Positions 53,184 through 64,000 of a stretch of 64,000 nucleotides of DNA are shown one piece after another (position 1 is the first letter of the stretch; every line of letters starts with the position of its first letter). The DNA is taken from contig NW_026889752.1 of NCBI RefSeq assembly GCF_033153115.1, forward strand, positions 10,726,001 through 10,790,000. Reading direction: 5' to 3'. Under the pieces are notes generated by a model. It was not told where the DNA came from. It was given only the letters and a program-made list of their open reading frames with translations, and did no database searches. The translations under genes and the position numbers were made by a program. Source of the stretch: Saccostrea echinata. Taxonomy: Eukaryota.

Positions 53184-55139
53184 GTGTGTGTGTGTGTGTT
53201 TGTAAATAAAGTTCAATTTATTTCTTCCTTGTAAAGTTAATCGAAAAACTAAATAACGTTTCCTTAATTATTACTTTAGCTATCTAGTTTGTTTATTGAT
53301 ATATGCTATTACGTTAATACTAAGTATCGTAAAAATATATTTTAAATTCATTAATCAATTGATATTATATTTTAGGTGACCACAAACTCCAAACTGCGCA
53401 CAGCAGTTGATATAACGAAGCTTTCTCAGTACCTCTACATTCCTCACACACAAATCACACTCCTCACTCTACAGTCATTTGATACAGAACAGCAGTTCTG
53501 TAGACAAGTCAAGTAAGTCATTAGATCTGTAGACAAGTCATGTAAGTCAGCAGTTCTGTAGACAAGTCAAATAAGTAAATAAGTCATTTGATACAGAGCA
53601 AAAGTTCTAAAGACAAGTCAAGTAAGTCAGCAATTCTGTAGACAGGTCCAGTAAGTTATTTGATACAGAGCAGCAGTTCTGTAGACAAGTCAGTAAGTTA
53701 TTAGGTCTGTTGAAAAGTCAGATAAGTCATTTGTTACAGAGCAGCAGTTATGTAAACAAGTTTGATAAGTCATTTGATATGAAGACAGCTGGTCAAGTGA
53801 GTCAGCATTTCTGTTGACAAGTCAAGTAAGTCGAATTACTGCAGCATTACAAGTACCTAAATCGAATATTTTTATGACCCTCAGATTGGAAGGGGAGGTT
53901 TTGTTTGTCCTGTCATAAAATTTATCATTCTCATTTTGTAACTTTAGAAAAATATTTAAGAGGGCTGGGTGGTCATGGCCATTTTTAGACTATATTGATC
54001 TCCTTTAGAAGAAGAGCTCCATATAAAGATATACAAATATGATCAAATTTTAAAACTAAAATGTATGGATTTTTTCTTTGCCAAATGATAGTTGACAACT
54101 TAAGGTATCATATCTAAAAAAAAATAAGTTATATCTGATGGTTAATTTGTTGACCCCCCGTCCTCCTTAATTCCCGTTAAGTCCNNNNNNNNNNNNNNNN
54201 NNNNNNNNNNNNNNNNNNNNNNNNNNNNNNNNNNNNNNNNNNNNNNNNNNNNNNNNNNNNNNNNNNNNNNNNNNNNNNNNNNNNNNNNNNNNNNNNNNNN
54301 NNNNNNNNNNNNNNCCTTTCTTGAGGTCGGTCCCTAGAATTGCGAGGTCGATATGCTTTTCTGTGAAGTAGATATATCTATTGATTGACCGAATAAAAGG
54401 GGTACATTATATATATATATTTTACAGAGATTGACAAAACAAAATTTTAAAATGATGAGAACAAGCCACAAGTTTGTTCTCTTGTCAATTTTAACACATC
54501 GAGACTGGAAATCAAAATATATTAAGCTGTTTGATGTAATTTCTTTTTTTAATACTGATTGGGTTATTAAGGGGATTTACTAGTTTAAATGGTTATATTT
54601 GTTTTGTAATGTTTTTTATGATTTATGATGAAACAAATCTAATATGTTTTAATATTAAGTACATCCTTATGCATTGTTATCTCTCACCAATTATTATAGA
54701 GAATCCTTTTATAAATAGTAGTTGTAGTATATATTTTTTTCAAACACATCATATCATATTAGCTATTGTGAAATCAGCACTATTGTTGTTTTACAGAAGA
54801 TAATTTCCATTGGAAACTCATTTTTTGGCAAATAAGTGTGAAAACCGAGTATGCTTAGCGTTAGGAATGGCCAGTCTTGGGACTTCTGATTATCTATAAA
54901 TTCATAAAAATATGGAAAACTTCTTTTGTAGACAAAGCTTTGAGAGAGACTTAGCTGCCGAGTCTCTGTTGATTGTACAGTGTGACAGTGGAAATGAGAA
55001 TGCCAGCCTTGTGGCCTGTGCCCAGTATTCTGTGTTAGATCAGCTGCAACAGCTGGAGGAGGAGAAGACAGGGAAGACACACATTGTCTTCATCATCCAT
55101 CTCCCCAGGGTGGCAGGTGGAGGATTTACAGAATTCCAG
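7288..55139 (+). CDS. RNF213: RNF213/mysterin-like E3 ubiquitin ligase-AAA+ ATPase, partial multi-exon gene (28 exons traced, AAA core region)
   Basis: The spliced translation carries RNF213 signature peptides in the expected order: DPSWAELRHF, YELTTDN, IPVIIMGETGCGKT, VHGG, FFDEANTTEAIGLIKE, AACNPYR, LVYRVQPLP, VWDFGQL, FVSLRDVER, ELRIPLFLVGK, SNWAMDPAKMNRG, REFFGLRDFYSLIKM, NLYESLYDAL, FPIPL.RLEKH, FDTE. Every junction is phase-compatible. Confidence 0.95.
7945..9330 (-). mobile_element. Decayed RTE-clade LINE, RT and 3' end
   Basis: Minus-strand peptides DPFSVGTGVRRGC, LNFTDDINLLS (FADD motif remnant), IKIDIRKRWI; many stops and frameshifts. Confidence 0.75.
8024..8344 (+). mobile_element. 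tRNA-derived SINE (bivalve Meta+Deu-domain type, BivaMD-like) inserted in the LINE
   Basis: B-box GTTCGAATC, Deu-like CCTTCGGATGAGACCTTAAAAACCGAG, (CAAT)n tail, ~14-bp TSD TCAATTTGTTCCAC/TCAATTCGGTCCAC. Family name is from memory. Confidence 0.8.
9335..9857 (+). mobile_element. HINE-family fragment
   Basis: TTTTAGCTCACCTGAG head and sequence similar to 1619-1950. Confidence 0.65.
9858..9928. repeat. (TA)n microsatellite
   Basis: Perfect TA run of ~35 units. Confidence 0.98.
9946..10211. mobile_element. MITE with ACTATAGT subterminal motifs
   Basis: CCCTAACAAAA...TTTTGTTAGGG TIRs; same motifs as 46099-46964. Confidence 0.65.
10810..11435 (-). mobile_element. Penelope-like element remnant (GIY-YIG endonuclease region)
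   Basis: Minus strand RVPLVITYHP, AYRRPRNLKDMVIR, C..RRCLLC, YLISCKVC..QYV, EPVGEHFN, EKFWMHRL. Confidence 0.8.
11690..12240 (-). mobile_element. Upstream fragment of the RTE LINE
   Basis: Minus strand AIKILKNGKTADSDGI (KAxGxDGI motif); same strand and correct order relative to 7945-9330. Confidence 0.6.
13021..13305 (-). mobile_element. tRNA-derived SINE, Deu-domain subfamily lacking the Meta-like segment
   Basis: A/B boxes on the minus strand (TGGCGCAGTGG, GGTTCGAATCC); Deu core and tail shared with the 8024 copy. Confidence 0.85.
13389..13554 (+). CDS. RNF213: RNF213-like exon 2
   Basis: DIGQNDLLFDDKEFRSDVFQRPFQYL...PQTCLQTLLK; AG/GT bounded. Confidence 0.9.
13911..14050. mobile_element. 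140-bp foldback MITE-like element
   Basis: 42-bp terminal inverted arms with 2 mismatches, extending imperfectly to ~64 bp. Confidence 0.8.
14241..14409 (+). CDS. RNF213: RNF213-like exon 3
   Basis: HCGIRDPSWAELRHFVWFLNTQL...FLIQMSR; AG/GT bounded. Confidence 0.93.
15708..15838 (+). CDS. RNF213: RNF213-like exon 4
   Basis: NFATRSLNMSEESP...DAEEEEDEDVLRQFQLRRTWEN; AG/GT bounded. Different frame from the ORF-track call at 15736. Confidence 0.9.
16200..17080 (-). mobile_element. Highly decayed non-LTR RT remnant (tentative)
   Basis: Minus-strand LLANRSFSVQT and AFVCGDLGL (possible YADD remnant); higher GC than the flanks. Confidence 0.3.
17990..18433 (-). mobile_element. HINE-family element, reverse orientation
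   Basis: Ends TGATCAGAAAAGCTACTTGAGCC..CTCAGGTGAACTAAAA, the reverse complement of the HINE head. Confidence 0.75.
18960..19600. repeat. Degenerate ~130-145-bp tandem array (probable Helitron-type central repeats)
   Basis: About 5 copies of GCCAAGGGAGAGAAAATATG..ACAAGGATTTT..TTTCATCTAG. Confidence 0.7.
19750..20700 (-). mobile_element. 5' end/ORF1 remnant of a CR1/L2-type LINE
   Basis: Basic N-terminus (KQKKRKKAK), coiled coil (MKRMVESKLDK...IRSLKDELSLDL), RRM-like SGIPVTEDENV...VRLPSR..KPGLVKISF; broken frames. Confidence 0.65.
20964..21190 (-). mobile_element. tRNA-derived SINE (BivaMD-like), tail lost
   Basis: Reverse complement of the 8024 family including the head. Confidence 0.85.
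21286..22260. mobile_element. TTAA-flanked non-autonomous DNA transposon (Kolobok-like)
   Basis: TTAA|GGCTACACCCAGA...TCTGGGTACTGCC|TTAA; a related inverted copy lies at 56703-57090. Confidence 0.65.
22891..23088 (+). CDS. RNF213: RNF213-like exon 5
   Basis: FFNPDHHSMTFLGFNI...NENFDSLPR; AG/GT bounded. Confidence 0.92.
23193..23315 (+). CDS. RNF213: RNF213-like exon 6
   Basis: DQKLYKLCSVMG...DPDPSYELTTDNVKKIMGIYMRFK; AG/GT bounded. Confidence 0.93.
23445..23565 (+). CDS. RNF213: RNF213-like exon 7 (first active AAA Walker A)
   Basis: CDIPVIIMGETGCGKTRLVKFMC...MIHMK; AG/GT bounded. Confidence 0.95.
23605..25415. mobile_element. Non-autonomous hAT transposon
   Basis: Perfect 8-bp TSD TCCATTGG (23597-23604, 25416-25423); TIRs CAGGGTTGGGGT/ACCCCATCCCTG; AATTAC/GTAATT subterminal arrays. 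Confidence 0.88.
25512..25753 (+). CDS. RNF213: RNF213-like exon 8 (first active AAA Walker B)
   Basis: VHGGT...TVLFFDEANTTEAIGLIKEIMCD...IVAACNPYRK; AG/GT bounded. Confidence 0.95.
27068..27150 (+). CDS. RNF213: RNF213-like exon 9
   Basis: HSEDLIKRLEQAGAGYQVDADKTTDRI; AG/GT bounded. Confidence 0.9.
27401..27534 (+). CDS. RNF213: RNF213-like exon 10
   Basis: QVPVRRLVYRVQPLPQSMLPLVWDFGQL...MVRRY; AG/GT bounded. Confidence 0.94.
28881..28980 (-). mobile_element. SINE 3' tail fragment
   Basis: Reverse complement of the tail of the 29148 copy. Confidence 0.75.
29148..29445 (+). mobile_element. tRNA-derived SINE (BivaMD-like)
   Basis: Collinear with 8024-8344. Confidence 0.85.
31155..32193 (+). 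mobile_element. Decayed, internally deleted mariner transposon
   Basis: TA|CGAGGGTTGTTCGAAAGTTCGTGGAC...GTCCACAAACTTTCCGAACCTTCG|TA; transposase N-terminal remnant MEQQLTIQFCVVL...VYTWDRRYLNDRDS near 31544-31700. Confidence 0.8.
32646..32738 (+). CDS. RNF213: RNF213-like exon 11
   Basis: IREGKLPNEPNFNKSVSHILTSAQEFMRRQQ; CAG acceptor, GTAAG donor, phase 0-0. Confidence 0.88.
32867..33066 (+). mobile_element. 5'-truncated SINE (Deu domain + tail)
   Basis: CCTTCGGATGAGACCTTAAAAACCGAGG...(CAAT)n. Confidence 0.85.
33321..33530 (+). repeat. 42-bp tandem repeat (5 copies) spanning the exon 12 acceptor
   Basis: Units at 33321, 33363, 33405, 33447, 33489; consensus CTTGTTTATTCTACAGGATGAGTGTAGTTTTGTCAGTCTGAG. 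Confidence 0.92.
33505..33666 (+). CDS. RNF213: RNF213-like exon 12
   Basis: DECSFVSLRDVERVLEVMSWFY plus an acidic tail; donor GGG|GTTAGC inferred from phase. Confidence 0.88.
33778..33947 (+). CDS. RNF213: RNF213-like exon 13
   Basis: TVSDLTKSLVLALGVCYHACL...LDIITR; AG/GT bounded. Confidence 0.92.
34071..34293 (+). CDS. RNF213: RNF213-like exon 14 (second Walker A, GKSGSSKS)
   Basis: AKNQALRENVFMMVVCIELRIPLFLVGKSGSSKSLAKTIVADAMQG; AG/GT bounded. Confidence 0.95.
34426..34596 (+). CDS. RNF213: RNF213-like exon 15 (degenerate second Walker B)
   Basis: VQMLSFLCSRLSMPEGIVGIFRQCA...SVVVLDMMGLAEDSSKMPFT; AG/GT bounded. Confidence 0.93.
34744..34806 (+). CDS. RNF213: RNF213-like exon 16
   Basis: VLHTLLEDGCQGDEIPEEHKK; AG/GT bounded. 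Confidence 0.9.
35240..36690. repeat. ~155-bp satellite-like tandem array (about 9-10 degenerate copies)
   Basis: Recurring CATGGTTACTAAAAATAGAAATT..GTGAAATTCTTTCAAAA (e.g. 36280, 36435, 36590). Confidence 0.85.
39470..40002 (+). mobile_element. Penelope-like RT C-terminal/3' remnant
   Basis: LYDKRDEFHFSIVN..YLCSNIPLSSSYGVYVSQLIRYARA; homologous to 50775-51340 and 41460-41675. Confidence 0.75.
40483..40619. other. Assembly gap (N run)
   Basis: Ns in sequence. Confidence 1.
40886..40995 (+). CDS. RNF213: RNF213-like exon 17
   Basis: VAFIGISNWAMDPAKMNRGILVQREVPDLEELVNSA; AG/GT bounded. Confidence 0.94.
41198..41332 (+). CDS. RNF213: RNF213-like exon 18
   Basis: GICSGNK...REFFGLRDFYS; AG/GT bounded. 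Confidence 0.93.
41968..42139 (+). CDS. RNF213: RNF213-like exon 19
   Basis: LIKMVYNFA...IRRNFGG...VEKIKI; donor ATT|GTAATT inferred from phase. Confidence 0.88.
43096..43169 (+). CDS. RNF213: RNF213-like exon 20
   Basis: PSPGDPDCTPAGLIKACLHGDGVD; TTTCAG acceptor, GTAGGT donor, phases fit both neighbours. Confidence 0.85.
45327..45459 (+). CDS. RNF213: RNF213-like exon 21
   Basis: DTRYLLLMTENYGAL...IFGSSFPGDQEYKQ; AG/GT bounded. Confidence 0.93.
46099..46964. mobile_element. Non-autonomous element with 30-bp subterminal tandem repeats
   Basis: ACTATAGTAAATCAAAGTTCCAAAGTTTTT arrays at both ends; ends TTTTTTAGGG like 9946-10211. Confidence 0.7.
47364..47471 (+). CDS. RNF213: RNF213-like exon 22
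   Basis: MYGKINRLKICMKTGNTTVLVNLENLYESLYDALDQ; AG/GT bounded. Confidence 0.9.
48079..48164 (+). CDS. RNF213: RNF213-like exon 23
   Basis: IYVYFGRERYVDLRLGTRPVKSRVHKNFR; AG/GT bounded. Confidence 0.92.
48509..48697 (+). CDS. RNF213: RNF213-like exon 24
   Basis: LIVVAKKEVVYSKFPIPLIHRLEKHF...; AG/GT bounded. Confidence 0.93.
48901..49027 (+). CDS. RNF213: RNF213-like exon 25
   Basis: EKATEYKIGHVFMGFNADTCASII...MEQE; AG/GT bounded. Confidence 0.9.
49426..49620 (+). CDS. RNF213: RNF213-like exon 26 (GC donor)
   Basis: VMQAAKEVLLWCATPDGVLR...YYEKQKHDNL...GLLAQ; ends CAG|GCAAAG. Confidence 0.87.
50775..51340 (+). mobile_element. Penelope-like RT C-terminal/3' remnant
   Basis: YPSELEIKDTTESATFVSYL..., IVNFPYLCSILPLSSAYGVYI. 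Confidence 0.75.
53144..53198. repeat. (CT)n + (TG)n microsatellite
   Basis: Direct reading. Confidence 0.95.
53376..53512 (+). CDS. RNF213: RNF213-like exon 27
   Basis: VTTNSKLR...ITLLTLQSFDTEQQFCRQVK; TAG acceptor, GTAAGT donor. Confidence 0.9.
53473..53832 (+). repeat. Minisatellite built from the exon 27 3' end plus donor site
   Basis: About 10 variable copies of (GTCATTTGATACAGAG)CAGCAGTTCTGTAGACAAGTCAAGTAAGTCA. Confidence 0.9.
54185..54314. other. Assembly gap (N run)
   Basis: Ns in sequence. Confidence 1.
54932..55139 (+). CDS. RNF213: RNF213-like exon 28
   Basis: SLLIVQCDSGNENASLVACAQY...HIVFIIHLPRVAGGGFTEFQ; AG/GT bounded. Confidence 0.92.
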
Positions 55140-55774
55140 GTAAAAAAAAATACGAGTATCCACTTATTTTTATTTCAGGAAAGTTGAAGGGAACATAGCA
55201 ATGTAAGCGTCTTTGGTAGTAAATTGAAAATGAATGTTCTGTTGTTTAAATGCTTTAATATGCTAGTTCCCTATATATGTACTTGTCACTAGCTAGCATG
55301 TATATAGGTACAACAATATGCTACTTGTCTGTTTGTCTGTTTTATAAACTTTTTTTTAATCTGATGCACTTATTTAAATTTCTTTCAATCTACAGACTTT
55401 GGATTTAATATATAAACTGTGGAAGGGAGAGGAAATGAAAAGAATTAAAATGATCAGAGGTTAGGAGAAATGTCCTGGCCCTTTCACACACATGTGTTAA
55501 AAAATCAGATATTCTTTTAAAATATATGAAATCCAGAAACATATATTTATTGCAAAGGTGGCTTGTAATAAGAGGAAGCTGCTCTTAGATTTTGGGATCA
55601 TGTACATGTGGTCAGACGTTTAAATCAAAATAATCTATTATAACTATGTTGATGCATATATTTCTTTGAGAAAGATACACAGTATAATTGCTTCTTTAAT
55701 TAAAATGAAACTCAGAAATTTTAATATATTGTAATCGGTCATCAACAAAATTACTTTGTGAAAAATCACTCTGA

Positions 55775-57090: not shown

Positions 57091-57857
57091 CTTTTATAGG
57101 TTTATTGTGTCATACAAGTTACAACATTTATAATGGTATAATAATAATGCTAATGATAATCATAATGGCAGTGTGCTGTACAAATGAAAAATAAAGAAAA
57201 AAACTTACTTACAAATTTAAATTCACATGATTGTAATGAAGTATTAATTAAAAATGAATAAAAATTAAGATACAGAATTATGACAGACAGTTGACCTTTT
57301 CATTATAAAGATTTATAGTATATTACACTCATAATTAATTGACATTATGAATAAATATGTATAAGGAATATGCCTAATATAAACCTTACCCCAATTAGGG
57401 CAAAATGCACAAAAGGTTAAGGTCACAATGTGTATTGGTCACAGTGATGCAATCTAATAAAAATCAATATATCTATGTTAACCCCTTTCATACTTAGAAT
57501 TAAAATAAATAGCCAACAGAATATGAAAACTTTTATCAACAAATACATGTCTTAAACTTATTCTATTAGAATAAATATTTTCTTACTTTATAAATATTAA
57601 AATATTCCTACCAAAACATCATTTACTATTATGAACAAAGATATCTAAAAAAAAAAGAATAAAAAATAAAAACTTACAGTTGGTATTTACTATTACAGAC
57701 ATGCAATTGACTTCAACAGTTACACAGTCTAGCGCGAAACATTTCGTGCAAAATCATAAACTATGAAATCACGTGATCACAGGAAGTGAAGTTGAAATTA
57801 TCAAAATATTAAACAACCTACATTTAACTTAAAACTTATATGTATTTTCTATAATTA

Positions 57858-58453
57858 TGTAGCAAATTTATAATAGTTGATTGTCAGATTCCGGATTGTT
57901 ATCATGGTTATAGCTACCTGTTATTAATTTTCTATTTAGCTGTTTAGTCTTATCTATTTGTAAGCTAGGGCAGTTTATTGCTTTTTAATTATAGTGATAA
58001 TTAGTTAATCACAGGTGGTCATTGTTTAATGTTATGTATTGCCTCCCCACTTAGAGGAGGTAGAGTTTTCACTCCCCACATTGTGGAGGCTCGGTAGAGT
58101 ATATAAGTAAGCGAATTTGATCATTTGTACAGTTAAAACAGTTAAAGTAGTTGCAGTTGTGTAGTGAATTGTTGTAAATATCAGACAGAATAGATTTAGA
58201 CAGAGTAGCAGGGTTTAGGATTTTATATATTTTATCTGGATTATTTTACTATTATTTCTAATGTGAAGTGTGGACTATATATGTGTAAATATTGTGTATA
58301 GATATGTAAATAAATTAGTGAACTTTTATGCGGACTTCATAGCATTATTCTGAGGAGGGGTGAGAATTTCAGTAAAAACCGCTCGGACAGTAAATGTTTT
58401 TAAACTCAGCAGTTTAATTAAGCTGACTCCCCCGCAGCTCGGACTGCGCTACA
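57858..58453 (+). repeat. 5' LTR (596 bp)
   Basis: TGTAGC...GCTACA inverted termini; TATATAA at 58100; AATAAA at 58309; first 106 bp repeated at 63895. Confidence 0.95.
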
Positions 58454-58455
58454 AC

Positions 58456-58467
58456 TGGTGGCAGCGG
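58456..58467 (+). promoter_or_regulatory. Primer binding site (tRNA-Leu type)
   Basis: TGGTGGCAGCGG, 2 nt after the LTR, complementary to the ...CCGCUGCCACCA 3' end of tRNA-Leu. Confidence 0.85.
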
Positions 58468-58727
58468 ATGATGCTGTTACCGCGGCTATGCAGGAGGAAT
58501 GTATACGCATGACGGAAAATGTAAGGATGAAAGAAAGAAGAATAGAAAGACCTGTTTATGATATTCGTAATTCTTATGCAAGAAATGTCAACAAGAATAA
58601 TCACACAGAGCGAGGTAGTTTTAAATCAGTGAAACGATGCTACAGATGCAATTCTACAGGACATTTACTAAAGGACTGTCCGAAAAAGACACTTAACCAA
58701 AATAAACGTGAAGCAAGGGAGCCTTAA
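58468..58727 (+). pseudogene. gag: Truncated gag (C-terminal part only, CCHC zinc knuckle)
   Basis: CYRCNSTGHLLKDC (CX2CX4HX4C). Confidence 0.88.
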
Positions 58728-58729
58728 AT

Positions 58730-61700
58730 GCAAGTCGAGGCAGTAGGCCATGCGTCGGCTAAGTTAAGGAAGCGGCCTTGTACTGTTAACCTGCAATATC
58801 GTGATGTTAAGGAAATTGATGGTGACATTTCACAGTCAGTAACTATGGCAACACAGACGAGATATTATAGAGGACCTGGATTATCATTCTAATGTGAGTG
58901 AACGCGTTGTACACATTCCTGGAGAATCTGGAATGAAGTTAAAAGGGTTTATAGAAGGAGCACCATCAGAATGGAAATTAGACACAGGAGCCATAAATAC
59001 GTTCATAACAGAAGATGCCTATTACAGCATCCTTCCAGAACAACGACCAGTACTTGAGTTCACAAAGAAGAAATTTCAAGCTGCCGATGGAAACAACTTG
59101 CATATTATAGGAACAGCTGAAATATTGATATCATTTGCTGGGTTTAGTGTGATATTTCGTGTATTTGTTGGAGGTATTAAAACAATTTACTTGGACTGGA
59201 TTTCATTACAAGATTTAAATGCCAGTGGGACTTTGATCGTAATTTGTGTATTCTAAAATGTGTATCAGATAGTAGTTTACAGGGATCTCATGTGTTTTCC
59301 ATAGAGGTTTGTGTAATTCTACCACATCATGAAGCAATTACTACAGCCAGAGTTTACTCAGGACCAGGAGGAGGAATAGGAATTTTAGAGCCCTTGCAGA
59401 ATTTTGTACTTAGCCATGGATTAGCGGTTGCTCGTGTGCTTGTGAGTTTGGATGCTGAACAGAGTTGCATCTATTTACGGGTATTTAATCCATTTGAGCA
59501 GGAAGTACGTGTAAAAGAGAATATGGCCGTAGCATTCGTTGAACCAGTTGAGTGTGTTTCATCTTCTGTCAAAATTACAAATGTTTGTTGTGTGGATTAG
59601 ACGTCAAATAGGAAATTGCCAGATTTCCTTGAGCCGGTGTTCACTGAGGGATGTGAACATTTGACTGATGAGCAAACAAAGAAATTCAAAGATTTTCTCC
59701 TGAGTCGTGTAGAGGTTTTTGCTGACCCGAGTAAACCACTTGAGAGGGCACGTGTTGGAGAACATTTTATAAAACTGAAAGAAGAAATACCTTTTAAAGA
59801 AGTTGTAAGAAGAGTCCCAATCTTTAAACGTGAGGTTATGGATAATGAGATACAGAAACTGGAAGAACAAGGACTAATTGAGAAGTCTAATAGTCCTTGG
59901 TCGTCTCCCCTTGTCTTAGTGCAGAAGAAAGATAAGAGCTGGAAACTATGCTGAAAGCTGAACGCAAACACCATCAAGGATGCTTATCCAATTCCCAGAG
60001 TAGCAGATGATCTTTATTCCTTAGCAGGATCGGCGTGGTTTTCGTCGTTAGACTTAAACATGGCGTACCACCAAATTCCCATGCACAAGGGTGATAAAGA
60101 GAAAACAGCATTTGCTACCCCTCGTGGAGGATTATATCAATACACAATAATGCCATTCGGACTGTGCAATGCACCAGCTACTTTTCAGCGTGTTATTGAA
60201 AAAGTTTTGAGCGGGTTACAGTGGCGAATATCAGTGTTATACCTCGACGATATCATAGTTCACAGCCGTGACTTTGATACACATCTAGAGAACTTGAACT
60301 TAGTACTTGATCGATTACAAGAGGCAAATTTAAAACTGAAGGCTAAAAAGTGCAACTTTTTCCAGAAGGAAGTGAATTTCCTCGGGCATGTCGTATCTCA
60401 AGAAGGAATAAAAACTGATTTGTCCAAGATTACATTAGTGAAAGAATGGAAAGTACCAAAGAATGTCTCTGAACTTAGAAGCTTTCTTGGACTGGCATTA
60501 TATTATCGTAGATTTATCAATGGATTTGCTAAAATAGCAAAGTGTTTACATGCTCTCACTGGTAAAAATAGTACATGGAACTAGACTTCTCAATGTACAG
60601 AAGCTTTTGAATTGCTAAAGGAGAAACTTGTGTCAGCACCAATTCTTGGTTACCCGGATGTAAAGGGAAGTGAATTCATACTGGATACAGATGCTATTGG
60701 AGCAGTCCTGTCACAAATACAAGATGGTAGAGAAGTTGTTATTTGCTATGGAAGCCGTGCCCTGTCTAACTCAGAGAAAAACTACTGTGCTACAAGAAAA
60801 GAAATGCTCGAAGTAGTGTATTTCATCAAACAATTCAAACATTATTTTCTAGGACGAGAATCCTTGTTACAGACTGATCACGGATCACTAGTGTGGCTTC
60901 ATAAGATGAAAGAACCAGAAGGTCAGATGGTTAGGTGGCTTCAACAATTAGGACCAGATATATTCCGAATTGAACACCGTTCTGGGAAGCAGCATGGAAA
61001 TGCTGATGCGATGTCTAGAATTCCATGTGATTCAACTTGTAAACAGTGCAAACGTGAATCTACAAATAGTGACAGTGACAAATTCTCTCATGTTAGTGAA
61101 TTACGGGGAACTTTTAACACAATCAAAGAAGAAGACGTGTTTGCTCTTGACAGACTTTTTAGTGTTAATGTCAGTGACTGTGCACCAATACTAGGGGATA
61201 AAAGGCATAGAGCTAACAGGCCTACCAGAGCAAAAGCTAGAAAACAGCAAACAGAACCATTGGATATTCAGAACATTAAAAAACATCAACTCGAAGATAG
61301 CGGAATGCGCATTATTATCCAATGGCAGGAAAAAGGCAACAAACCCCCATTATCAGTGATATCGCGTGATATTCTGAGTGTAAATTTCGGTTTTCCAGAT
61401 GGGATTTGTTATACATGGATCATTGAATACTGTGCATTCGTTGGATAATGAGGATTACAAAATATGTGTTCCTCGGAAATTACGAAGTGTTGTGCTGTGG
61501 CAGCTGCATGATTCCATTAGTGCCGGACATATGAGAGAAAAGAGAACGCTTGCAAAAGTGCGAAATTCTCTTTATTATTGGCCAAGAATGCGACAAAGTG
61601 TGCATGATTTTGTCTTATCCTGTGATATTTGTGAGGAGAGGAAAAATCCACCAAGAAAGAAAAGATCCTGCATGAAGCAATATTTCAGTGGTGAACCGTT

Positions 61701-62766
61701 TGAAAGAATAGCAATTGATATTACTGGACCTTTTCCAAAATCGGACAAAGGATATTCTTACTTATTAGTAGTTGCTGACTACTTTACCAAATTCATGGAG
61801 ATTTTTCCTTTGGTAAACTTAGAAGCAGAGACAGTTGCTGAAGTGATTTTTAAGGGCTGGATAAAACGATATAGATGTCCAGGTGAAATTCATTCAGATC
61901 AAGGGAGACAATTTGAGAGTCACTTATTCCAAGGCTTGTGTCGGATATTTCAGATTAGCAAAACCCGGACAACCCCATATCATCCACGATCAGACGGAAT
62001 GGTCGAACGACTGAAGCGAACAATTAAAGAAATGTTGTCCAAATACATATGCTCAAATCAAACAGACTGGGATACTTACATCAATGGTATTGTTCTTGCA
62101 TATAATACTACGCCACACGAAACTACGGGTATGTCACCATATAGGATGGTATTTGGAAGAGAAGCAAAATAACCACTGAATCTCATGACTGAAAAAGATC
62201 TAACAAACAGTGATATTGAAATTAATGACGCAGAATATGTGCGCAACTTAGAAGACAAACTGATAGAAATTCATCAGTTGGCGAGGGAAACGATGAAAAA
62301 TAACTCTGAGATACAGAAACGAAATTTTGACAGAAATTTACGAGAAGTAACATACGAAGTTGGAGATTTAGTGCGCCGTAGTCAACCAAAAATTGTGGAA
62401 GGAACAAAACAAAAATTGGCTAGAAAATGGACTGGACCATGGATTATCAGAAAAAGACTACGAGAAGTATCATACTAGATAAAACATTCGGAAAATTCAA
62501 AACCCGTTATTATTTACTCAGATAACCTTAAACGATACCACGGCAGTAAAACTTTATCAGGTGTTAATTATGATGCTGATCCAGAAGACCCTGACGTTTC
62601 TAGTTTGCCGCTCCCCAACCAGACTGACCTAACTGTCTCGACACCCCATACGGAAACGACGGAACTTCAAAAGACTAGAAGAAACGTGGAACAGGAGTCG
62701 CAGCTTAGCACCACCTTGACACGCAAGGGCCGTGCAGTTAAATTACCGAAGCGTTACTTATTGTAA
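58730..62766 (+). pseudogene. pol: Gypsy pol (PR-RT-RNaseH-IN) with multiple stops and frameshifts
   Basis: LDTGA; SPWSSPLVLV; MPFGLCNAPATFQR; YLDD; FILDTDA; HGNADAMSR; H..H..C..C; IAIDITGP, HSDQGRQFE, GMVER; KWTGPW; terminal TRKGRAVKLPKRY*. Confidence 0.95.
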
Positions 62767-62793: not shown

Positions 62794-63561
62794 ATGTTAT
62801 GCGAATTTTGTGGAAGAAATATTATAAGAAAAGATAATTTACAACGACACATCAGAGAAAACCATTTGGACCAATTTATTGTAAACTGTTCTTATTGCCA
62901 GCGACCATTTTCGAGAACTTTCAGCCTAAAAAGACATTTACAAAATTCTCACAAACTTTCCGACAAAAATGCGAGAATTGAAGTGAAACACAGTAATAAA
63001 AAGAAGATGTCGCAAGAGGAACTAAATAAGGCTAAGAAAGCTGTATTTATCAGCTCGATGTATGAAGATATTACGCCAGTTAGTTCACCGCCACATCCGT
63101 CAACGGAATACGAACCAGTTAGTGAAGATGAAGATTGGCCGTCAATTGGGTCCGTTTTAGAAAACGAACTTCTTAACTAAACCAAGAAGGCCGACGCGGA
63201 TACGTTCGTAGAAGAGATCTTGTTTAGCAGTGCTGGAGAGACACAGTCAGGCCTTGGTGAATCTAGTACATGTAACTCTGACAACAATGGTTATTTAGCG
63301 GAATCCGTCGAAACTAAGACGCCAAGTGACAATACATCAAAGACAGTTACCTTAACTGAAACCATCATTATCAAGATGACTAAGAAAACCATTTCTCACA
63401 TTGATGGCACCACAGAGATTGTTCGGGATACCGAAATTTCTCATTCAGAAACTGTTAACCCAGACGAATTAGATGTTATGAAGTTTGCAACTGACGTGTT
63501 TACTGAAATTCCGGAACATTTTCGTAATCGAAACGTCAGGATTGTTGAATTAAATGATTGA
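62794..63561 (+). pseudogene. Extra retrotransposon ORF3: two C2H2 zinc fingers plus acidic Ser/Thr-rich tail, one in-frame stop
   Basis: Two CX2CX12HX4H fingers; ORF-track pieces 62785-63180 and 63220-63561 share one frame, separated only by TAA at 63178-63180. Confidence 0.82.
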
Positions 63562-63880
63562 CAAAATATTGTAAATTTGTGAACTAATGCTGATAGTGAA
63601 TGTGTTTAAATAATGTTTTTATTCTCATTATTGTTCTGATTAATATAATTTCATTGTATGCTATATGTTCTTCAGTTGTCAAAAATGTACAGTCAGATTT
63701 ATTTTTGTTTAATTGTTTGTTTATTGTACATGTATTTGAATATCTCTTATTATTTGATTAATTATGCGAAGTTAAAGTGTTGCTGATTTATGTGTTGTCA
63801 TGTATGTTTTTCTGTTTCAATTTTGTCAACGTTTCGTTTAGCTTAGTTTTTTTTCTTTATTTTGAGCGGAGTCAAAAATT

Positions 63881-63893
63881 AAGTGGGGGAGAG
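63881..63893 (+). promoter_or_regulatory. Polypurine tract
   Basis: AAGTGGGGGAGAG just before the 3' LTR. Confidence 0.9.
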
Positions 63894-63894
63894 T

Positions 63895-64000
63895 TGTAGC
63901 AAATTTATGATAGTTGATTGTCAGATTCCGGATTGTAATCATGGTTATAGCTACCTGTTATTAATTTTCTATTTAGCTGTTTAGTCGTATCTATTTGTAA
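63895..64000 (+). repeat. 3' LTR (truncated by window edge)
   Basis: 103 of 106 bases identical to 57858-57963. Confidence 0.96.

What the first reader, a model, noticed from the sequence alone, without database searches (positions are those of the whole stretch)
62794..63561. Gypsy retrotransposon carries a tandem C2H2 zinc-finger ORF in the env position
Seen: a separate same-strand ORF lies between the pol stop (62766) and the PPT/3' LTR, inside the element. It starts at ATG 62794, spans ~255 codons and has one premature TAA. It begins with two C2H2 fingers (CEFC-GRNIIRKDNLQR-HIRENH; CSYC-QRPFSRTFSLKR-HLQNSH), then a basic patch and an acidic Ser/Thr-rich tail, with no signal peptide or transmembrane segment. 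Known: canonical Ty3/Gypsy elements encode gag-pol, sometimes env; a stand-alone C2H2 protein is not standard. Inference: the layout resembles a small transcription factor. The finger-1 helix R-K-D-N-L-Q-R predicts a GAG triplet by the Zif268-type code, and the LTR has GAGGAGG (58054) upstream of its TATA box. It could be an element-encoded transactivator, anti-silencing factor or targeting factor. I cannot confirm that it is undescribed.
Basis: partly seen in the sequence, partly recalled or inferred. Interest (0 to 1): 0.8.

Follow-up and report, generated by a model that had tools for sequence, protein, structure and literature searches.

The report
Retrotransposon encodes its own transcription factor
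A group of jumping genes in oysters carries a small zinc-finger gene whose fingers match a short palindrome beside each element's own promoter, family by family, so these elements probably make their own on-switch, as some complex retroviruses do.

Summary
Confirmed and extended. ORF3 (62794-63561) is a fixed third gene of a Gypsy clade: 36 of 48 fetched loci with a similar sequence lie directly behind an integrase. About 13 families, 20-75% alike in protein, form one RT clade, and relatives occur in oysters, mussels and a scallop. The stop at codon 129 is private to this decayed copy; dN/dS against an open sister copy is 0.20. ORF3 has two C2H2 fingers, an acidic motif region and a conserved C-terminal hairpin-helix domain with no structural match. 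New here: the LTR carries two dyads (6 bp, 5-bp spacer, 6 bp; 58043 and 58072). The nearer one starts 28 nt before the TATA box in 7 of 13 families; none of 6 control LTRs has one. Half-site bases co-vary with each family's finger residues (48 of 54, permutation mean 34, p 3e-4). Of three testable prior predictions one held fully and two partly. Best reading: a self-encoded, family-specific LTR activator working like foamy-virus Tas. Binding, dimer, direction of effect and ORF3 expression are not shown. Ten paper searches found no description; Repbase, Dfam and GyDB were unavailable. The scan's earlier notes held nothing on this DNA.

The parts
57854..57857 (.). target-site duplication ATTA (left copy; right copy lies beyond the window end)
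   Evidence: locus L021
57858..58453 (+). 5' LTR, TG...CA, 596 nt
   Evidence: 96.7% to the 3' LTR
58072..58088 (.). proximal dyad, candidate operator, starting 28 nt before the TATA box
   Evidence: same offset in 7 of 13 families
58100..58106 (+). TATA box (chosen by eye; start site not mapped)
58456..58467 (+). primer-binding site, cut to 12 nt by the deletion; complementary to a tRNA 3' end (Leu identity recalled, not shown)
58468..58727 (+). remnant of gag (CCHC knuckle); about 1.7 kb of leader and gag deleted upstream
   Evidence: zf-CCHC E 1.4e-6
58843..62766 (+). pol in the order PR-RT-RNase H-INT, broken by five stops and two frame changes
   Evidence: RVT_1, RT_RNaseH, Integrase_H2C2, rve; protease had no Pfam hit and is assigned by motif and position
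62794..63561 (+). ORF3, candidate self-encoded transcription factor, 255 codons, broken here at codon 129
62800..62865 (+). finger 1 (positions -1/3/6 = R/N/R), matches the outer triplet GAG
62887..62952 (+). finger 2 (positions -1/3/6 = R/S/R), matches the inner triplet GNG
63061..63177 (+). acidic region with the conserved Y-E/S-D-I-S/T motif and a second similar motif; candidate activation or cofactor-binding region
   Evidence: (Y90, S94 nearly invariant)
63178..63180 (+). premature TAA, private to this copy
   Evidence: L022 and L025 read open over 272 and 263 codons
63349..63558 (+). C-terminal domain: long beta-hairpin plus helix, no Pfam or PDB match
   Evidence: pLDDT 86.5; best Z 2.3
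63881..63894 (+). polypurine tract, preceded by a motif conserved across families
63895..64000 (+). start of the 3' LTR (continues past the window, with both dyads)

Best explanation
ORF3 is an accessory gene of a bivalve Ty3/Gypsy clade. It encodes a sequence-specific transcription factor for the element's own LTR promoter. SHOWN: the gene is fixed behind pol, inherited with the element, conserved; the LTR has dyads at a fixed distance from TATA; dyad bases and finger residues change together between families. INFERRED: two ORF3 molecules bind one dyad, finger 2 on the inner triplet and finger 1 on the outer triplet; the acidic motif region recruits co-activators; the C-terminal domain may hold the pair together. 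The result would be a positive feedback loop private to each family, so that a family switches on its own copies (dead and solo-LTR ones too) but not other families or host genes. How ORF3 is expressed (spliced RNA, or re-initiation after the pol stop) is open. The copy in this window cannot make the full protein.
For: 36 of 48 loci fetched for ORF3 similarity have a same-strand integrase within 1.5 kb upstream. Of 12 loci picked only by integrase identity of 52% or more, 8 carry this ORF3, 2 a finger remnant, 2 truncated ones nothing. The 27 RT rows with this ORF3 type form one branch, SH-aLRT 100. 16 of 25 loci of this type tried have LTR pairs of 340 nt or more at 95-100% identity. dN/dS window vs L025: 0.20 overall at dS 0.63, 0.09 in the C-terminal domain; L123 vs L129: 0.16. 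Spacer-5 dyads in the 130 nt before TATA: 19 against 2.7 expected in 13 families, 0 against 0.9 in 6 control LTRs. Covariation: hand table 70 of 78 (permutation mean 51, p 5e-5; 59-60 of 66 after dropping near relatives); automatically picked dyads 48 of 54 (mean 34.3, p 3e-4); fixed window in all 13 families 60 of 78 (mean 46, p 7.5e-4). All 9 families with Arg at finger-2 position 6 have inner 5' G; the 4 without do not keep it. Dyad mismatches fall where the finger is relaxed (window: Ser at position 3; L092: Gly at position 6), which fits protein reading and not hairpin pairing. Predictions noted: L092 met (AAGGAG/CAGGAG at -28). The window family's dyad pattern occurs 29 times in 923 Mb, reversed control 0. 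Both arms together occur once in the internal parts of 16 elements, just behind one 5' LTR. Residues 86-145: 14 acidic, 2 basic, 9 W/F/Y/L.
Against: No binding, expression or reporter data. Three of 13 families (L118, L124, L129) have direct GAGGAG repeats, no dyad. Mismatches to the code: L104 Arg6 faces C in 3 of 4 half-sites, L130 Asn3 faces G, L102 Arg-1 faces A; finger-1 position -1 fits only 8 of 13. Prior predictions: L103 half met (its site is damaged by a duplication), L102 met at 4 of 5 specified bases, L100 and P0109 not testable. Families share ancestry, so permutation p-values overstate independence; the ORF3 tree is poorly resolved. TATA positions and the hand table were chosen by me. 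The recognition code is partly recalled, and PMC4330361 (passages) says one residue can specify different bases by context. A site 11 nt from TATA could equally repress. RNA contigs showed no splice joint into ORF3.
Confidence: 0.62

Rival explanations
1. Same binding, opposite sign: ORF3 is an autorepressor that sits beside the TATA box and limits its family's activity (copy-number control).
For: The proximal dyad ends 11 nt from TATA, where a bound protein could block assembly. The conserved acidic motif resembles the acidic LSD motif by which co-repressors dock on SPOC domains (PMC10111866, passages; the residue-level likeness is recalled).
Against: The acidic region with embedded aromatic residues is typical of activation domains (textbook knowledge). 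Carrier families are young and spreading. The retroviral parallel, Tas, activates (PMC517496, abstract).
Confidence: 0.14
2. ORF3 is an anti-silencing factor: it binds the dyad and removes or blocks host silencing (VANC-like), or titrates a SPOC-domain repressor through its motif, and does not contact the basal machinery itself.
For: Family-specific factor and target pairs that diverge together are the VANC pattern (PMC5735166, abstract). The motif is the most conserved non-finger part. Sister lineages carry finger plus BTB proteins and a histone-tail-like N-terminus.
Against: Sites are few and fixed relative to TATA, not spread along the element, whereas VANC targets often form tandem repeats. 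No enzyme domain. Motif binding untested.
Confidence: 0.13
3. The dyads are sites for host factors or RNA hairpins in the 3' copy of U3; ORF3 does something else (RNA export, integration targeting), and the match is coincidence plus shared ancestry.
For: R-x-x-N-x-x-R helices and GAG triplets are common defaults; several code mismatches exist. The dyads can form short stems.
Against: The sites differ between families in step with the fingers, sit at a fixed distance from TATA, and are absent from six LTRs of lineages with other or no ORF3. A prior prediction was met exactly. Mismatches break pairing but keep the predicted half-site.
Confidence: 0.09
4. One-off capture of a host zinc-finger gene, or neutral passenger DNA.
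For: The window copy has a stop; annotation pipelines list some relatives as host genes.
Against: Fixed position in about 13 families, one RT clade, dN/dS well below 1, and a Pacific oyster gene model that joins RT, RNase H and the integrase tail to ORF3.
Confidence: 0.02

Closest known systems
Foamy virus Tas/Bel1 transactivator (PMC517496, abstract read)
   Same: Element-encoded protein from the 3' part of an LTR retroelement that binds DNA elements in its own LTR promoter.
   Different: Tas belongs to Retroviridae, lies behind env and also acts on an internal promoter. Here the host element is an env-less Ty3/Gypsy, the protein uses two C2H2 fingers, and no internal dyad or shared internal TATA was found. 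No sequence comparison with Tas was run.
VANC anti-silencing proteins of Arabidopsis transposons (PMC5735166, abstract read)
   Same: Transposon-encoded, sequence-specific; protein and target motif diverge together between related families.
   Different: VANC acts on DNA methylation throughout the element and its targets often form tandem repeats; the carriers are DNA transposons (recalled). Here there are two promoter-proximal dyads in an LTR and a classical finger pair.
Non-env ORF3s of Ty3/Gypsy elements in bdelloid rotifers (PMC5408684, passages read)
   Same: Separate extra ORF in the env position, lineage-specific types.
   Different: Those are GDSL esterase, DEDDy exonuclease, coiled-coil or membrane proteins; the main text has no occurrence of 'zinc finger' or 'C2H2'.
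Mollusc Gypsy clades of Thomas-Bulle et al. (PMC6238403, passages read)
   Same: This element probably falls in one of their clades.
   Different: The main text has no occurrence of 'ORF' or 'zinc finger'. Clade assignment was not possible without reference sequences; supplements were not read.
Errantivirus env
   Same: Position between pol and the 3' LTR.
   Different: No env-like Pfam hit, C2H2 fingers instead.

Membership tests
Ty3/Gypsy LTR retrotransposon | Paired LTRs with TG...CA ends and a target-site duplication | tested here: met
Ty3/Gypsy LTR retrotransposon | pol order PR-RT-RNase H-INT | tested here: met
   protease by motif and position only
Ty3/Gypsy LTR retrotransposon | PBS and PPT | tested here: met
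   tRNA type recalled
Named mollusc Gypsy clade (MolGy, C-clade, Cigr-1 etc.) | RT/RNase H groups with reference elements | not testable with these tools
   no reference sequences on hand; tree holds only G000 loci
env-bearing Gypsy (errantivirus-like) | ORF3 is a membrane glycoprotein | tested here: not met
   Pfam gives only zinc fingers; model shows no membrane helix; no dedicated predictor run
DNA-binding tandem C2H2 protein | Two C2H2 fingers at canonical spacing | tested here: met
   (weak Foldseek rows are all finger proteins, best E 0.09); 7-residue linker, not the TGEKP type
DNA-binding tandem C2H2 protein | Sequence-specific DNA binding | tested here: inconclusive
   strong covariation, no binding assay
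Tas-like LTR transactivator (works-like claim) | Response element in own LTR | tested here: met
   candidate dyads
Tas-like LTR transactivator (works-like claim) | Raises LTR transcription | not testable with these tools
   needs a reporter assay
Tas-like LTR transactivator (works-like claim) | Internal promoter with its own response element | tested here: not met
   no dyad near ORF3 in 16 elements; TATA within 600 nt upstream in only 2 of 16
VANC-like anti-silencing factor | Family-specific protein and target that co-evolve | tested here: met
VANC-like anti-silencing factor | Loss of silencing marks over the element | not testable with these tools
   needs methylation or chromatin data
SPOC-binding LSD-type motif | Phosphoserine motif binds a SPOC domain | not tested
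   resemblance only; review passages

The most novel reading that the evidence does not exclude
A clade of env-less Gypsy retrotransposons in bivalves are 'complex' retroelements. Each family encodes its own two-finger transcription factor and carries a matching operator at its promoter, and the pairs have diverged into near-orthogonal circuits that can be read with the zinc-finger code. Sister lineages keep the finger module but swap the effector (BTB domain, histone-tail-like N-terminus), which points to a large, overlooked class of retrotransposon regulatory proteins.
Probability: 0.55. Interest if true: 0.92.

Novelty: new variant of a known kind. Interest (0 to 1): 0.85.

Why it matters
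LTR retrotransposons are usually thought to depend on host factors for transcription; self-encoded promoter-binding regulators are a mark of complex retroviruses. A Gypsy clade with its own factor and operator would change that picture, explain family-specific bursts, and predict that one active copy can switch on solo LTRs of its family next to host genes. The 13 finger-operator pairs are a natural experiment on the C2H2 code and each gives an exact, cheap binding prediction. Many 'uncharacterized C2H2 proteins' annotated in oyster and mussel genomes would be transposon genes.

Tried and rejected
Homodimer prediction of full-length ORF3: no answer, score 0.06, alignment not used; not counted either way. 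C-terminal domain against 48,161 PDB representatives: best Z 2.3; ESM Atlas: no usable hit for the domain, only unnamed finger clusters for the whole protein; none of this shows a new fold. RNA: only three runs with small word shares (0.05-0.09). Contigs of a relative about 90% alike span pol to ORF3 in one run and cover it in pieces in a second run of the same study; the single joint was non-canonical and did not enter ORF3. Contigs drop rare forms, so splicing is neither shown nor excluded. AG lies directly before the ORF3 ATG in four families only. Internal promoter: no support. Outside DNA for an out-of-genome test: viral contigs and metagenome contigs gave nothing. Integrase tree did not finish; the RT tree is the quick version, 11 of 53 loci dropped for lack of a 200-residue stretch. 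dN/dS: pair L097-L107 dropped (frameshifted), five between-family pairs saturated; very close pairs (0.19-0.78) carry post-insertion decay and few changes. ARAGORN and Rfam did not name the tRNA fragment matching the PBS. Only 8 of 20 planned outgroup loci were fetched, at 4.5 kb, so their LTRs are not in the control set. Nested insertion and host-gene capture rejected (see rivals).

Full report
OBSERVATION. The ORF is as described: ATG 62794, stop 63559-63561, one TAA at codon 129, two C2H2 fingers with Pfam E 3.1e-9. It lies 27 nt behind the pol stop and before a PPT and the 3' LTR. The element runs from 57858 past the window end; its LTRs are 96.7% identical over 605 nt and flanked by ATTA. 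This copy is dead: about 1.7 kb of leader and gag are gone directly after the primer site, and pol has five stops and two frame changes. The nearest named proteins are Saccostrea gene models, so the host is an oyster.

A FIXED GENE OF A CLADE. Searches of the own genome found five further close copies and dozens of distant ones at about 30-46% identity, matching both halves of ORF3. Of 48 loci fetched at 10 kb, 36 have a same-strand integrase within 1.5 kb upstream; the other 12 are fragments or other finger genes. L022 and L025 read open over 272 and 263 codons, so the stop is private to the window copy; at least 13 loci have one open frame with a finger and the C-terminal hairpin. As a check free of this selection I took 28 loci by integrase similarity alone. 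Of the 12 closest, 8 carry this ORF3, 2 a finger remnant and 2 truncated ones nothing. Of the 16 more distant, 10 carry other finger ORFs, 1 a finger-less ORF and 5 none. On an RT-RNase H tree of 42 rows the 27 carriers of this type form one branch (SH-aLRT 100, quick tree, midpoint root). 16 of 25 carrier loci tried have LTR pairs at 95-100%. dN/dS is 0.20 for window vs L025 (dS 0.63), 0.09 in the C-terminal domain, and 0.16 for L123 vs L129. A profile of the non-finger part found 111 clusters among 1.84 billion representatives. Of 30 looked up, the named ones are Saccostrea, Crassostrea virginica, Magallana, Mytilus and Pecten; most have no name, so the range beyond bivalves is unknown. One Magallana gigas model joins RT, RNase H and the integrase tail to ORF3, which places ORF3 behind pol in a second genus.

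ANATOMY OF THE PROTEIN. Two fingers (3-24, 32-53), a helical basic stretch, an acidic region with the motif Y-E/S-D-I-S/T (Y90 and S94 nearly invariant in 46 sequences), a variable linker, and a 70-residue domain that folds as a long beta-hairpin plus helix (pLDDT 86.5) with no clear match in the PDB (best Z 2.3). Residues 86-145 hold 14 acidic, 2 basic and 9 aromatic or leucine residues. In L024 and L025 the fingers are 93-96% identical to the window copy in DNA while the part behind them drops to 70-82% (dS 0.14 against 0.7-1.05). This suggests recombination that kept fingers and LTR sites together and swapped the effector half.

THE LTR SITES. The printout showed more: two dyads before the TATA box, each a 6-bp half-site, a 5-bp spacer and the inverted half-site. 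In the window they lie at 58043-58059 and 58072-58088, with TATA at 58100. Spacer-5 dyads number 19 against 2.7 expected in 13 families and 0 against 0.9 in six control LTRs; spacers 1, 3, 7 and 9 are raised as well, largely because the same centres are counted with shifted arms. The proximal dyad starts 28 nt before TATA in 7 families, 27 and 24 in two more (longer TA runs blur the count); L103 has a damaged site at 28, and L118, L124 and L129 have direct GAGGAG repeats. Four further degraded loci show a dyad at 28-29. The window family's pattern occurs 29 times in 923 Mb, mostly as pairs 29 nt apart, against 0 for the reversed control; I did not check that every place is an LTR.

COVARIATION. 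Fingers bind antiparallel, so finger 2 should read the inner triplet and finger 1 the outer one (canonical model; positions -1, 2, 3, 6 and Arg for G confirmed in passages of PMC4330361; Asn for A recalled). The half-sites differ by family: GNGGAG (window), GAGTGA, GAGCAA, GAGCAT, KAGCTG, NAGGAG, TTRGGY. All 9 families with Arg at finger-2 position 6 keep an inner 5' G and the 4 without do not; all 11 with Asn at position 3 keep a middle A and the 2 without do not; for finger 1, position 6 fits 12 of 13, position 3 fits 12 of 13, position -1 only 8 of 13. The total is 70 of 78 against a permutation mean of 51. With dyads picked by script it is 48 of 54 (mean 34.3, p 3e-4), and with a fixed window in all 13 families 60 of 78 (mean 46, p 7.5e-4). 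I wrote four predictions down first and then looked: L092 was met on both arms at -28; L103 had the exact half-site on one arm; L102 matched 4 of 5 specified bases; L100's LTR was not recovered. These three families are included in the totals above. A fifth prediction failed for lack of DNA. Limits: families are related, TATA boxes were picked by eye, and three residue-base pairs go against the code.

MECHANISM. Most likely two ORF3 molecules bind each dyad, about 50 nt upstream of the presumed start site, and the acidic region recruits co-activators, giving each family a private positive feedback loop. Binding is well supported by sequence (about 0.85); activation as the direction is inferred (0.62 overall). 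Autorepression (0.14) and anti-silencing (0.13) use the same sites. Coincidence or host factors get 0.09. How ORF3 is expressed is open: its ATG lies within about 40 nt of the pol stop or overlaps it, AG directly precedes it in four families, no internal promoter was found, and RNA contigs showed no joint into it.

COMPARISON AND NOVELTY. It is a Ty3/Gypsy element by every feature tested, and ORF3 is not env. It would work like foamy-virus Tas (PMC517496, abstract) but has no internal promoter and a different DNA-binding module. The co-diverging factor and target recall VANC (PMC5735166, abstract). Non-env ORF3s are known from rotifers (PMC5408684, passages; no zinc fingers mentioned). Ten searches of the open library (eight on Gypsy extra ORFs, zinc fingers, molluscs or self-encoded transactivators, two on SPOC motifs and Tas) listed no paper describing this gene or these sites; most hits I saw only as listings. 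Term look-ups in PMC6238403, PMC13524379, PMC8556966 and PMC2774666 (passages) found no such mention. Supplements were not read, subscription journals are missing, and Repbase, Dfam and GyDB could not be checked; a Repbase note on the ORF is quite possible, a description of the operator pairing less so. The scan's earlier notes held nothing on this sequence or genome, only extra ORFs in fungal and euglenid elements.

VERDICT. Real, conserved, and more structured than first reported: a new variant of a known kind (element-encoded LTR regulator), with directly testable binding predictions. Interest 0.85.

Noticed in passing
L145:6708-7919, L153:2833-4056, L154:3079-3834: Distant Gypsy families carry an ORF3 with zinc fingers plus a KCTD-type BTB domain (Pfam BTB_2 E 7e-19 to 1.5e-14). 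It could be an oligomerising regulator or a ubiquitin-ligase adaptor (inference).
   Followed up: partly
L141, L146:7089-7715, L147, L149, L150, L152, L155: A second RT clade (7 loci) has an ORF3 starting M-x-x-T-K-x-T-P/K (6 loci shown), like the start of the histone H3 tail (resemblance recalled), then a C2HC and a C2H2 finger, a W-x-x-x-D-P-G motif and a C-terminal hairpin. Relatives in Saccostrea and Magallana. Possible histone mimic.
   Followed up: partly
L148 (oriented 7002-7781) and L142, L143, L144, L156: L148 has a 260-codon finger-less ORF3 with no Pfam hit; L142 and L143 have nearly the same RT and LTR but no ORF3, so they look like deletion derivatives or a very recent gain.
   Followed up: no
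L125:7417-8046: Another lineage with a two-finger ORF3 and a proline-rich tail; no dyad found at its TATA.
   Followed up: partly
window 63862-63894: A motif of about 30 nt just before the PPT is conserved in 10 of 11 elements printed, across families whose 3' UTRs are otherwise unlike; possibly an integrase attachment or plus-strand priming signal.
   Followed up: no
L130 and L132 LTRs: In this basal family U3 holds many CCTAA-type repeats, expanded to more than 15 in L132; its finger 2 differs from the rest and its ORF3 lacks the acidic motif.
   Followed up: partly
window 53473-53832: Imperfect 29-nt tandem repeat array upstream of the element.
   Followed up: no
window 13224-13305 (-): tRNA-Ser(AGA) called by ARAGORN.
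   Followed up: no
window 54900-55187: Exon-like frame of a host gene just upstream of the element; it looks like part of a large RNF213-type protein (recalled, not tested).
   Followed up: no
G000 pattern hits: About ten places hold the window family's dyad pair away from the known internal copies; probably solo LTRs that an active family member could switch on.
   Followed up: no
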